A DNA stretch of 40,420 nucleotides, taken from Promethearchaeia archaeon. Its GTDB lineage: Archaea > Asgardarchaeota > Lokiarchaeia > Sigyniarchaeales > SOKP01. The stretch spans positions 1 to 40,420 of the forward strand of contig JAHQWK010000010.1 of assembly GCA_029856145.1 (NCBI GenBank), in the 5' to 3' direction. Below, in pieces: positions 9,774 to 34,508 of this stretch. Under the pieces are notes generated by a model. It saw nothing but the letters and a program-made list of their open reading frames with translations, did no database searches and had not been told where the DNA came from. Each line of letters starts with the position of its first letter. Positions within the stretch are counted from its first letter, which is position 1. Both the position numbers and the translations under genes were made by a program.

Positions 9774-11237
9774 TTATCCCCAGAAGGGTTTCCAACTATT
9801 CCATAAATCCCAATGCTTTACGTTTTTGAAGTTTTGACTGATTGCTTTTAACCTATATCTGCTTTTTATAGTTTTAAGAATTTGCCGGGAGATGTAATTG
9901 GGTCGTAGCATAAATTTTTTGTGAGTTTCTCTTATTCGTAACATTAATTCACTCAAAGGGATGGGAAGAACAGCAGTACCAACTTCCCAACATTCATCTG
10001 GGTTAATTCTTTTTTCTTTTACCATCTGATCCCAAATCCAATTTCCGGGTATTATACCTAAAATATGAAATTGTGGAAAGTCAATATCTAATTTGAGTGA
10101 AAAATTTAATGTATTAATAATTTCCTCACGAGTTTCAATTGGCGCACCCACTATAAAATTCGCTAAGACCATATCAATTCCAACTTTATTGGAATTTTTT
10201 ATTGCATTATGAATTTGATTTAAATTAATTTGTTTATTATACCACTCTAAAATTCTTTGAGATCCACTTTCGACACCATAACTCAGAATTTTACATCCCA
10301 TCTGTTTCATAGCATTTAATAATTCTATTGAACTTTGAGTAACCCTCCCTTCTGCCATCCAATCAAAATCTATTTTTTCTTTCTTTAGTAAATCTGATAA
10401 CTTCATTAACCTTTTTTTACTTATAGTAAAGTTATCGTCAACCCAGAGTAAGTTTTGATAACCTTGTTCTTCTAGAACGGATAATTCTTGTACTATATTT
10501 TCTGGAGATCTTGGACGCCAATTACCCCAAAACATAGAACTTGAACAAAATGAACATTTAAATACACATCCTCTTGATGAAGCAGCAGAAGTAAATTTTC
10601 CTATAGATAGATCAAGACCTTCAACTTTATTTCTATATTCCACATTTCCTAATAAATTCCTGTTTGGAAACGGAAGGATGTCAATATTTTCTATAAGAGG
10701 TCTATCATTATTTCTAATAACTCTACTATTATCTCGATATGTTACACCTCTTATATCTTCAAACCCATGACCTTTCTCAGCTTTTTCGGCAATTTCTAAT
10801 AGAGTATTTTCCCCCTCTCCTCTTATGCAAGCATCAATAAAGGGGTACTTATTTAATATTCTAGTATCATTGAACGTAGCATGATAATTCCCAAATAAAA
10901 CCTTAACGTTTGGATTTATTTCTTCTTTTACTTTTTTAGCAATTTCTGCAGAACTTCTTCCAGTTCCTGCAGTAGTTATCGTCGAAAAACCTAAAATATC
11001 AGGGTCTTCATGTTTTATCCACTTTAAGGTTTCCTCAATCGATAAACCCCTAGCAAATTGATCAAGTATGGATACATTAAAATTATTTTCACTTAAATAG
11101 GTCCCGAGGTATAAAATTCCCATAGGTGGAAATCCATAAAATTCTATTTTCTCTTTGTAATACTTCTCAGCCTCTTTGACTGTACCACAAAATGTACCTT
11201 TTTCTGGGGGTTTTGGAAATATTAATGATACCTTCAA
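9774..11237 (-). CDS. cobalamin-binding radical SAM protein
   Basis: 'PPMGILYL', 'GNYHAT', 'SRGCVFKCSFC', 'DDNF', 'GVESG'. Confidence 0.93.
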   Translation of the reverse strand: MKVSLIFPKPPEKGTFCGTVKEAEKYYKEKIEFYGFPPMGILYLGTYLSENNFNVSILDQFARGLSIEETLKWIKHEDPDILGFSTITTAGTGRSSAEIAKKVKEEINPNVKVLFGNYHATFNDTRILNKYPFIDACIRGEGENTLLEIAEKAEKGHGFEDIRGVTYRDNSRVIRNNDRPLIENIDILPFPNRNLLGNVEYRNKVEGLDLSIGKFTSAASSRGCVFKCSFCSSSMFWGNWRPRSPENIVQELSVLEEQGYQNLLWVDDNFTISKKRLMKLSDLLKKEKIDFDWMAEGRVTQSSIELLNAMKQMGCKILSYGVESGSQRILEWYNKQINLNQIHNAIKNSNKVGIDMVLANFIVGAPIETREEIINTLNFSLKLDIDFPQFHILGIIPGNWIWDQMVKEKRINPDECWEVGTAVLPIPLSELMLRIRETHKKFMLRPNYISRQILKTIKSRYRLKAISQNFKNVKHWDLWNSWKPFWG

Positions 11238-32206: not shown

Positions 32207-32884
32207 TTAAAACTTATATTTGTAAATTGCATTTCGAATTTTCTTTGCAGCCATATTTGGGTTTTTTGCTCGAGTAATCGCTCCACCTACAATGATAATA
32301 TCTACTGGATAAGCTAATATGTTAGGAATATCAGAAACTCTAATTCCTCCTGCCACTGCTAATTTTGGATGGGCTCGTAGCCGTTCTACTAATTCTAATT
32401 CTAATAATGGTGCTCGTCGTGATGTTTGGCGATCTAAACCGCTATGGACTAAGGCATAATGTAATTTTGTATCTTCATATTTAAGGTCTATTAGACCTGC
32501 TAACCTAATAGCTGGTGATCTTGACATTATAAGGTCTGCCATAATTTCTACATGAAAATCATGTGAAGCACGTAAAGCTTCTTCAATAGTGACGTCGTAA
32601 GCATCGGCAAGTATTGTAACAATATCGGCTTTCGCTTGAGCAGCCATTCGCACTTCAAGATATCCTGCATCAGCAGTTTTTAAATCAGCACAAATTAACT
32701 TGTCAGGGTGAGCCTCCTTTAATATTTGAACGACTCTAATACCTTCGGATTTTATTAAAGGAGTTCCAGCTTCAATAATATCTACAAAAGGAGCTACTTT
32801 TTTTGCTAGTGCCAGAGCTTCATCTAAAATTTCAAAATCCAAGGCTACTTGTAGCATAGGCAGTTGTTGCTTCATTTTATGCAT
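32207..32884 (-). CDS. hxlA: 3-hexulose-6-phosphate synthase (OMPDC/HUMPS family)
   Basis: 'LQVALD', 'IEAGTPLIK', 'ADLKTADAG', 'AVAGGI', 'IVGGAIT'. Confidence 0.85.
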   Translation of the reverse strand: MHKMKQQLPMLQVALDFEILDEALALAKKVAPFVDIIEAGTPLIKSEGIRVVQILKEAHPDKLICADLKTADAGYLEVRMAAQAKADIVTILADAYDVTIEEALRASHDFHVEIMADLIMSRSPAIRLAGLIDLKYEDTKLHYALVHSGLDRQTSRRAPLLELELVERLRAHPKLAVAGGIRVSDIPNILAYPVDIIIVGGAITRAKNPNMAAKKIRNAIYKYKF

Positions 32885-33195
32885 TTTCTTTTTTTACATT
32901 AGTTCTTATTACTAAATTAAAATTTGAAAATTTAAAAATCTAATTTCATAGTTAGTATTCGCTGAATTTTATAATAGTAATATACAATAATTAATATTTG
33001 TAAAAAATAGAAGCTAAATAGAAAAAATTAATCTGATATTTCCAAATTAATGAAAATAACTAAAAATTGAAGTAAAATGTTATTCTGAAAAAGAAATGTG
33101 AATAAGGATTAATAAATTATAAAAACAATCCTTTTTAAGATCCTTTTGCTTATTTTTATTAAAGAATATCATAAAATAAAACAACGTGAAATATA

Positions 33196-33453
33196 GTGGA
33201 TAAAGATAAAGTTAAACAAGTTCTCGAAAAAATACGTCCGCAACTCCAAATGGATGGTGGAGATGTAGAACTCGTATCAATCGAAGATGATGGAACTGTA
33301 AAAGTGCGTCTGATGGGCCATTGTGCAGGTTGTAAATAGCTCTATCTCAGAGCTGTTAATCAAATGCACGCCCAGCAGACTATAAAATTCGGTATCGAAC
33401 GCGCAATTAAACAATTCGTGCCCGAGATTAAAGAAGTAGTGGCTGTTCCATAG
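33196..33453 (+). CDS. NifU/Nfu-type Fe-S cluster carrier, join(33196..33333,33364..33453), 75 aa after splicing
   Basis: Hand translation from GTG 33196: MDKDKVKQVLEKIRPQLQMDGGDVELVSIEDDGTVKVRLMGHCAGC | MHAQQTIKFGIERAIKQFVPEIKEVVAVP*. Matches the NifU-C consensus (IRP-L-x-x-DGGDVE...G-x-CxxC-x5-T-L-K-x-GIE). Absent from the ORF track because of the in-frame TAG at 33337-33339. Confidence 0.93.
33334..33363 (+). other. 30-nt bulge-helix-bulge (tRNA-type) intron in nfu mRNA
   Basis: Exon helix GUGCA(33323-27)/UGCAC(33365-69); central helix GGUU(33328-31)/AAUC(33358-61); bulges GUA(33332-34) and AAA(33362-64); intron stem AAUAGCUCU/AGAGCUGUU with AUCUC loop. Cuts after the 2nd nt of each bulge give an in-frame TGT|ATG junction. 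Confidence 0.88.
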
Positions 33454-33683: not shown

Positions 33684-34508
33684 TTAGTTTTGAAATTGTT
33701 TTAAATAATTCTTCCTTCCTTCTTCGTACATTTCTAACATTTCTTCAGGAGTAAAGTTTGCAAGAGCTTGATCTGGAATACCTGACTGCCCTGCCATTAA
33801 GCTAACATTCTCTGCATTCTTGGCCAACCATTTCATAAAAATAAATGCCGGTAAATCTTGCTTTTTTGTGACTTCAAGATACTTAAAAAACTCAGCTTCA
33901 GCTTTATCGAGTTCTCCAATATCGAAATAACTCCAACCTAACTGGTTTCCTAAATTGGGTTGCCATCCATTTCGTTCAATTTCTAGACTTATTTTATTTA
34001 TATCTTGTTTCAGTTTTTCAGGATCCTTTTTATCCAATGGTTTAGGCTCTTGAATAGTTGGTGTTGATTCACCTTCGATAAATCCGAAATCTCTAGCTAC
34101 TGCGTATGAATGTCCATAAAATCTCGCATTTAATCTCATGATTGTTTCAACACCAAACTTTTTGATATCTGATAACTTTACTGTTCTTTTTAAAGGTTTT
34201 AATTGTCCTGTTTTATAGGATTTTTTCCACTGTTTTGGTTCTCCTGACCAAATCCAAGCTAGTTTCATTTTTTTAGGTGTGATATCATATACGATGTTAT
34301 AGTCTAATTTTCCATGTGATAATTTAAATTCCACATAGAATTCTCTATCAATATCTTTTTTCGTTTTATCAGGAAATACATGATTTATAAATGTATAATC
34401 TATATTCTTTGCTTGTTCTCCAAATCTAACTTCCCACATTTCTTTTGATTTCTTTAAATAATCTTCATTTAAGAAATAACTTACATAGCGTGTATTTTCA
34501 GAACTCAT
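33684..34508 (-). CDS. hypothetical protein with one TPR-like motif
   Basis: 274-aa ORF; 'NQLGWSYFDIGELDKAEAEFFKYLE'. Confidence 0.7.
   Translation of the reverse strand: MSSENTRYVSYFLNEDYLKKSKEMWEVRFGEQAKNIDYTFINHVFPDKTKKDIDREFYVEFKLSHGKLDYNIVYDITPKKMKLAWIWSGEPKQWKKSYKTGQLKPLKRTVKLSDIKKFGVETIMRLNARFYGHSYAVARDFGFIEGESTPTIQEPKPLDKKDPEKLKQDINKISLEIERNGWQPNLGNQLGWSYFDIGELDKAEAEFFKYLEVTKKQDLPAFIFMKWLAKNAENVSLMAGQSGIPDQALANFTPEEMLEMYEEGRKNYLKQFQN

What the first reader, a model, noticed from the sequence alone, without database searches (positions are those of the whole stretch)
33196..33453. Hidden NifU/Nfu gene split by a canonical bulge-helix-bulge intron: candidate mRNA splicing in an Asgard archaeon
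SEEN: an unannotated NifU-domain frame (GTG 33196) is interrupted right after CAGC by 30 nt (AAATAGCTCTATCTCAGAGCTGTTAATCAA, 33334-33363) containing an in-frame TAG. Removing them gives C-M-H-A-Q-Q-T-I-K-F-G-I-E, the same spacing as the NifU consensus C-P-x-S-x-x-T-L-K-x-G-I-E. The RNA folds into a full hBHBh' motif: exon helix GUGCA/UGCAC, 4-bp central helix GGUU/AAUC, 3-nt bulges GUA and AAA on opposite strands, and a 9-bp intron stem with a 5-nt loop. KNOWN: archaeal splicing endonuclease EndA cuts after the 2nd nt of each bulge and RtcB ligates. Applied here, the cuts are GU^A and AA^A, which match the boundaries inferred independently from the protein. BHB introns are typical of tRNA/rRNA; the established protein-coding case is crenarchaeal cbf5. 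INFERENCE: this is a spliced mRNA intron in an Fe-S biogenesis gene of a probable Lokiarchaeon. I know of no description of it but cannot search to confirm novelty.
Basis: partly seen in the sequence, partly recalled or inferred. Interest (0 to 1): 0.97.

Follow-up and report, generated by a model that had tools for sequence, protein, structure and literature searches.

The report
tRNA-type intron splits Asgard nfu gene
A 30-base insert with a stop codon breaks an iron-sulfur-cluster gene of an Asgard (Lokiarchaeia) archaeon and has the exact, conserved shape that the archaeal tRNA-splicing enzyme cuts, so the message is very probably spliced; at least nine more genes of this genome look the same, whereas the papers I could search report such an intron inside a coding sequence for only one archaeal gene.

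Summary
Confirmed. The single nfu gene (33196-33453) of a Lokiarchaeia genome carries a 30-nt insert (33334-33363) with an in-frame TAG. It is identical in three independent assemblies. Cuts by the bulge-helix-bulge (BHB) rule give a 75-aa protein that intronless relatives encode residue for residue. Sixteen distinct inserts (29-33 nt, all phases) at this site keep the 4-bp central helix in 64/64 cells, and an exon wobble base covaries with its intron partner 16/16. Exon 2 stays under purifying selection. Four genomes have inserts at a second nfu site. The genome encodes a crenarchaeal-like alpha/beta EndA pair and RtcB, but no PylS. At least nine more genes carry such inserts, among them single-copy uL11, aIF2-gamma, pyrG, mvk and uppS. 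Best reading: EndA/RtcB-spliced mRNA intron (0.92). One correction: here the canonical fold lies 1.5 kcal/mol above the predicted minimum. This scan found the same class before on other DNA (25 notes, at least 17 genomes, other genes). Papers searched report only cbf5 (coding) and a Haloferax 5' UTR.

The parts
33186..33189 (+). GTGA, Shine-Dalgarno-like motif upstream of the start
   Evidence: sequence; kept in orthologues; function inferred
33196..33333 (+). nfu exon 1: GTG start, 46 codons, ends with the CxxC motif (C43-A-G-C46)
   Evidence: orthologues start at the same place
33334..33363 (+). 30-nt BHB-type intron
33337..33339 (+). in-frame TAG inside the intron; unspliced product is 47 aa
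33364..33453 (+). nfu exon 2: 29 codons plus TAG; supplies the second helix and last strand of the Nfu fold
   Evidence: model of the intronless orthologue L007: helix 47-64, strand 70-74
33323..33327 (+). exon helix h, 5' strand GUGCA (pairs with 33365-33369)
33328..33331 (+). central helix H, exon strand GGUU
   Evidence: 64/64 cells paired over 16 inserts
33332..33334 (+). 5' bulge GU^A (5' splice site)
   Evidence: BHB rule; matches homology boundary
33335..33357 (+). intron hairpin h': 9 bp, loop AUCUC at 33344-33348
33358..33361 (+). central helix H, intron strand AAUC
33362..33364 (+). 3' bulge AA^A (3' splice site)
   Evidence: BHB rule; matches homology boundary
33365..33369 (+). exon helix h, 3' strand UGCAC
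33308..33380 (+). extended exon-exon helix (33308-33318 with 33370-33380) below the BHB
   Evidence: exon-only folds are stronger in intron-bearing alleles, -15.7 vs -10.3 kcal/mol

Best explanation
[quoted passage not shown] The pre-mRNA folds into hBHBh' (structure predicted; pairing supported by covariation). The alpha/beta EndA cuts after the second base of each 3-nt bulge (GU^A, AA^A), and RtcB joins the exons (inferred from the known tRNA and cbf5 pathway; the genes are shown present, their action here is not shown). The joined message reads CAGC-MHAQQ and gives a 75-aa Nfu-type Fe-S carrier (identity of the product shown by homology). The mature mRNA keeps a 5-bp stem with a 7-nt loop, like a tRNA anticodon arm with a 37/38 intron, and part of this hairpin pre-exists in intronless alleles. 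Such sites probably permit insertion, and the intron is then tolerated as near-neutral cargo that is gained, lost and swapped by allele exchange (inferred). It is one member of a genome-wide class in this family of Lokiarchaeia.
For: Exact junction in intronless orthologues; the spliced protein itself is on record from intronless genes. 16 distinct same-site inserts of 29-33 nt: central helix 64/64 cells paired, position 3 U-A x11, C-G x3, A-U x2 (permutation p 3e-5, kin not independent). Whole structure on 9 rows: 95% paired, 0/500 shuffles as high, slid registers 20-37%. The Ala codon that closes the exon helix ends in a purine in 17/17 intron-bearing vs 9/32 intronless alleles. Exon 2 synonymous/nonsynonymous differences between intron-bearing pairs: 10/0, 16/1, 7/2, 13/4. 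Second site QMD|GG in four genomes with the same geometry. Only nfu copy in the genome. EndA alpha with the Y/H/K residues and the crenarchaeal-type loop, best PDB hits 3p1z_B and 3ajv_B; a second subunit lacking the His; RtcB. [quoted passage not shown] At least nine more genes carry such inserts, five of them single-copy housekeeping genes with no intact paralogue.
Against: The canonical fold is not the predicted minimum for this copy (ddG 1.5 kcal/mol; up to 3.6 in orthologues). Exon 2 starts with ATG, so selection on exon 2 does not by itself exclude separate translation. Some other inserts in the genome (aIF2-gamma, mvk) have weak exon helices. Sequences are related, so the statistics overstate independence.
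Confidence: 0.92

Rival explanations
1. Split gene: exon 1 and exon 2 are translated as two peptides (re-initiation at Met47) that assemble into an Nfu domain; the hairpin is a spacer.
For: Exon 2 begins with ATG in all site-1 copies; some inserts contain AGGA or GAGG upstream of it.
Against: Met47 is also the residue of intronless relatives. It does not explain the exon-intron covariation or the fixed 3-4-3 geometry. Exon-1 products have ragged C-termini. Site 2 and the other genes have no start codon at the junction.
Confidence: 0.02
2. Dead gene: a selfish or accidental hairpin insertion that inactivated nfu.
For: Stop or frameshift in every copy; nfu was not found with this query in 25 of 161 class genomes, so it may be dispensable.
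Against: Strong purifying selection on both exons among intron-bearing copies; compensatory changes; the same inserts break single-copy uL11, aIF2-gamma, pyrG, mvk and uppS.
Confidence: 0.02
3. Translational recoding: TAG read as pyrrolysine, or ribosome hopping over the insert as in T4 gene 60 or mitochondrial byps.
For: This copy is in frame (30 nt) with a single TAG close to a hairpin.
Against: No PylS over cut-off. Orthologous inserts come in all three phases and with TAA or TGA. No matching take-off and landing codons in 9 of 9.
Confidence: 0.01
4. The insert is removed, but not by EndA/RtcB on the mRNA (another nuclease-ligase pair or DNA-level excision), or EndA cleavage mostly leads to decay and acts as a regulatory switch.
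For: A shared loop signature (UC at intron positions 14-15 in 14 of 20 inserts vs 1.1 expected) is not part of the BHB rule and may point to another factor. Some inserts have relaxed motifs.
Against: Boundaries follow the EndA rule exactly in 16 of 16 site-1 copies. All assemblies of this strain carry the insert in DNA. No terminal repeats or second copy of the insert in the genome.
Confidence: 0.03

Closest known systems
BHB intron in cbf5 pre-mRNA of Desulfurococcales and Sulfolobales (Watanabe 2002; Yokobori 2009, PMC2738675)
   Same: Short intron in a coding sequence, boundaries between the second and third base of each bulge, variable interior, lineage-specific loss, hetero-oligomeric EndA.
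   Different: Different gene and phylum. cbf5 is one gene with one inferred ancient gain and mostly unconventional BHB, and its splicing is shown by cDNA. Here there are at least ten genes in one genome, two sites in nfu, patchy presence among close kin, a canonical motif, and no RNA evidence yet.
BHB intron in the 5' UTR of Haloferax volcanii HVO_1309 (Schwarz 2020, PMC7714728)
   Same: An mRNA that is an EndA substrate.
   Different: Outside the coding sequence, so splicing is not needed to build the reading frame.
Asgard tRNA introns (Valentin-Alvarado 2024, PMC11291895; Goswami 2026, bioRxiv 10.64898/2026.10.13.758758)
   Same: BHB boundaries, repeated gains, unknown route of arrival; the tRNA genes of this genome hold introns of similar size.
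   Different: tRNA genes only, with the highest load in Jordarchaeia and Atabeyarchaeia. The preprint has no mention of mRNA or cbf5.
Eukaryotic IRE1-dependent XBP1/HAC1 unconventional mRNA splicing (from my own knowledge, not tested)
   Same: Short intron removed from an mRNA by an endonuclease plus a tRNA ligase (RtcB in animals).
   Different: The nuclease is IRE1, not EndA; recognition is two stem-loops, not a BHB; it is stress-regulated.

Membership tests
Archaeal EndA-type (BHB) intron | Two 3-nt bulges on opposite strands separated by a 4-bp helix at the exon-intron borders | tested here: met
   canonical fold within 1.5 kcal/mol of the minimum here and the minimum in 5 of 9 orthologues
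Archaeal EndA-type (BHB) intron | Cuts after the second base of each bulge equal the borders defined by intronless homologues | tested here: met
Archaeal EndA-type (BHB) intron | Structure kept while sequence and length vary | tested here: met
   64/64 central cells, three Watson-Crick pair types at position 3, 29-33 nt; controls
Archaeal EndA-type (BHB) intron | Host encodes splicing endonuclease and RNA ligase | tested here: met
   two EndA subunits and RtcB
Archaeal EndA-type (BHB) intron | Spliced RNA (and circular intron) present in the cell | not testable with these tools
Archaeal EndA-type (BHB) intron | Cleavage by EndA in vitro | not testable with these tools
   bench experiment
cbf5 intron of Crenarchaeota | Located in the cbf5 gene of Desulfurococcales or Sulfolobales | tested here: not met
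   host gene is nfu in a Promethearchaeota relative
Group I or group II self-splicing intron | Ribozyme core of hundreds of bases | tested here: not met
   30 nt; no Rfam match in the window
Pyrrolysine read-through | PylS encoded; in-frame TAG kept in homologues | tested here: not met
Translational bypass element | Matching take-off and landing codons | tested here: not met
   0 of 9
Nfu-type Fe-S carrier (PF01106) | Full NifU C-terminal domain with CxxC | tested here: met
   97 bits over profile 1-67/67 after splicing; fold of the orthologue pLDDT 83
NifU proper or NfuA (multi-domain) | Full-length equivalog score | tested here: not met
   TIGR02000 56 vs cut-off 273; TIGR03341 50 vs 269

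The most novel reading that the evidence does not exclude
One family of Lokiarchaeia runs routine, genome-wide mRNA splicing: ten or more protein-coding genes per genome, including housekeeping translation and lipid genes, carry a mobile family of 28-33-nt tRNA-type introns with a shared loop signature, which land in anticodon-arm-like hairpins and turn over between close relatives. This would be a prokaryote whose proteome depends on splicing many mRNAs, in the lineage closest to eukaryotes and independent of the spliceosome.
Probability: 0.75. Interest if true: 0.92.

Novelty: new variant of a known kind. Interest (0 to 1): 0.8.

Why it matters
It would turn archaeal mRNA splicing from a one-gene oddity (cbf5) into a genome-wide process in Asgard archaea. 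It shows that introns can spread through coding genes of a prokaryote with coupled transcription and translation and no nucleus, which bears on how intron-rich genomes arose. In practice, gene callers truncate or miss these genes (the nfu product is on record as 46-47-aa fragments), so pathway gaps in Lokiarchaeia genomes may be false. nfu is a compact test case: a 75-aa gene, two intron sites, and close relatives with and without the intron.

Tried and rejected
As a substitute I looked up the spliced protein by identity. It exists, but on intronless genomic contigs of other strains, which is not evidence of splicing. De novo genome scans based on a relaxed BHB plus reading-frame gain had no power: 864 vs 824-879 for shifted cuts, and 122 vs 107-117. 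A codon-model version was too strict and missed the known cases. Only homology and a motif-guided scan worked (11 loci vs 3-4 for shifted cuts), and the latter is partly circular because three of the 11 were in its training set; several of its other hits are probably false. A 17/18 match of the intron to C13:149575 is ordinary coding sequence. No source copy of the intron was found in tRNA genes or elsewhere. Promoter and terminator scans gave nothing above chance (bacterial consensus). PMC3064391 was not held. Searches failed on my own slips and were redone.

Full report
Observation. The window is contig C10 of a 3.55-Mb genome whose relatives are titled Promethearchaeota or Lokiarchaeota. 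From GTG 33196 the frame reads 46 codons to CAGC, then 30 nt with a TAG at 33337-33339, then MHAQQ to the stop at 33451-33453. Removing 33334-33363 gives a 75-aa protein that covers the whole Pfam NifU profile. It is a stand-alone Nfu domain, below the cut-offs of NifU proper and NfuA, and the only copy in the genome. Three independent assemblies carry the 258 nt unchanged, so it is no assembly error. Shuffled inserts reach this geometry in 1e-5 of trials, but 19 places in the genome fit an equally strict motif, so the motif needs outside support. ViennaRNA prefers a slightly different central register here; the canonical hBHBh' fold is 1.5 kcal/mol higher.

Homologues without the insert. 136 of 161 genomes of the class match the protein, nearly all without a break. 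Close ones show the junction TGT|ATG exactly. The predicted spliced protein is on record, residue for residue, from intronless genes of two other strains. A model of an intronless orthologue places the junction between the CxxC motif and the second helix, so exon 1 alone lacks a helix and a strand of the fold.

Homologues with the insert. One genome of another genus has a 31-nt insert at the same site. A pattern that fixed only exon codons found eight more metagenome loci, and truncated 46-47-aa proteins led to further ones chosen without regard to intron sequence. Over 16 distinct inserts of 29-33 nt, in all three phases, the central helix is paired in 64 of 64 cells. Its third pair joins the wobble base of a Gly codon to an intron base and switches among U-A (11), C-G (3) and A-U (2), always Watson-Crick (permutation p 3e-5). 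On nine aligned rows the structure is 95% paired against 80% for shuffles and 20-37% for slid registers. The canonical fold is the predicted minimum in five of these nine. The exons are adjusted too: the Ala codon closing the exon helix ends in a purine in 17/17 intron-bearing and 9/32 intronless alleles, and exon-only folds are stronger. These sequences are kin, so p-values overstate. Exon 2 shows 10 synonymous and 0 nonsynonymous differences between the window and its nearest intron-bearing relative, and 16 and 1 between two frameshifting copies. Four other genomes carry 29-31-nt inserts at a second site, QMD|GG, with 3-4 central pairs and 5-10-bp stems. All intron-bearing GTDB genomes belong to the window's own family.

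History. On a tree of the exons, site-1 carriers are not one clade (AU p 8e-5), and an intronless gene nests inside a supported group of carriers (228 columns only). One intronless strain is 98.5% identical to the window in the neighbouring gene but 90% in nfu, with no amino-acid change, which points to exchange of whole nfu alleles. Gains and losses cannot be counted from these data.

Machinery. The genome encodes two EndA subunits and RtcB. One has the Tyr, His and Lys of the catalytic triad and the crenarchaeal-type loop, with best PDB hits 3p1z_B and 3ajv_B; the other lacks the His. PMC5829648 reports (alpha-beta)2 EndA with the L1 loop, linked to broad specificity, in Asgard archaea. tRNA genes of the genome hold introns of about 20-32 nt, one in a T-loop. 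No PylS passes its cut-off, and no take-off and landing codons match.

Not a one-off. Comparing 489 orthologues from a 400-kb sample of a congeneric genome found two high-identity frame-breaking insertions, both 30 nt and both BHB-shaped: pyrG and a hexapeptide-repeat membrane protein; the reverse comparison found one in that genome. Earlier notes of this scan pointed to mvk, uppS, an FAD oxidase, cspA and aIF2-gamma; I confirmed 30-32-nt inserts in all five, with weaker geometry in mvk and aIF2-gamma. A motif-guided scan added elf1 and ribosomal protein uL11, the latter 28 nt with four Watson-Crick central pairs. uL11, aIF2-gamma, pyrG, mvk and uppS have no intact second copy; from general knowledge most of these are needed for growth, so the cell must repair the messages. 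The inserts share UC at positions 14-15 (14 of 20 vs 1.1 expected), which the BHB rule does not explain. None was found in 140 orthologues of a family-f3 genome.

Mechanism. Shown: the insert, its borders, covariation, selection on both exons, the enzymes' genes. Inferred: EndA cuts GU^A and AA^A, RtcB ligates, and a 75-aa Nfu results; the mature message keeps a 5-bp stem with a 7-nt loop, like an anticodon arm.

Comparison and novelty. The closest known case is the cbf5 intron of Crenarchaeota (PMC2738675). PMC7714728 names it as the only such mRNA intron besides a Haloferax 5' UTR. A 2026 preprint on Asgard tRNA introns does not mention mRNA. Eight literature searches found no report of coding-sequence BHB introns in Asgard archaea, but the library lacks most subscription papers. 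This scan has noted the class before in at least 17 genomes for other genes; those are AI notes and not counted as support. No earlier follow-up on nfu appeared. Verdict: a real and very probably spliced intron, a new variant of a known kind, whose interest lies in the genome-wide class it belongs to.

Noticed in passing
G000 C28:14741-14768 (-), locus L122: 28-nt insert in ribosomal protein uL11, central helix GCAU/AUGC, 8-bp stem; splicing restores a 164-aa single-copy protein with a full L11_N domain.
   Followed up: yes
G000 C18:41815-41846 (-), locus L121: 32-nt insert in the first CxxC of an Elf1-like zinc ribbon; splicing restores the Pfam domain.
   Followed up: yes
G000 C23:64787-64816 (-), loci L117-L120: 30-nt insert in CTP synthase (pyrG), also in three congeneric genomes.
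   Followed up: yes
G000 C32:34945-34974 (+), locus L123: 30-nt BHB insert after codon 9 of a hexapeptide-repeat membrane protein; absent in G067.
   Followed up: yes
G000 C3:203065-203095 (+), C3:195586-195615 (-), C2:161153-161184 (+), C6:11598-11627 (-), C5:about 34200-34229 (+): Inserts of 30-32 nt in mvk, uppS, an FAD oxidase, cspA and aIF2-gamma, first seen in earlier notes; confirmed in sequence, geometry weakest in aIF2-gamma.
   Followed up: partly
L046, L047, L049, L050 (nfu, after QMD): Second intron site in nfu in four genomes of three genera, 29-31 nt.
   Followed up: yes
20 inserts in 8 genes: Shared loop signature R-N-N-U-C at intron positions 11-15 and A-rich last two bases; unexplained, may mark a common origin or a binding factor.
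   Followed up: partly
L124:1334-1561 vs window 33196-33453: An intronless strain is 98.5% identical in the neighbouring gene but 90% in nfu, all synonymous: likely allele exchange.
   Followed up: partly
L093:17488-17517 (G067): 30-nt BHB-like insert in a small zinc-finger-like gene, absent from the G000 orthologue.
   Followed up: no
G000 C18:78380-78600 (-): A tRNA gene with two introns, one in the anticodon loop and one 30-nt in the T-loop, missed by ARAGORN.
   Followed up: no
G000 C8:12915-13007 (-) and C30:about 10370-10400 (+): tRNA-Sec is present, and an MvhD-like gene has an in-frame TGA, probably selenocysteine and not an intron.
   Followed up: no
window 32207-32884 (-): Divergent neighbour of nfu is an OMPdecase/HUMPS-family gene; the pairing recurs in relatives.
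   Followed up: no
L053:437-601 (G013): Partial second copy of nfu just upstream of the intact gene in a family-f3 genome.
   Followed up: no
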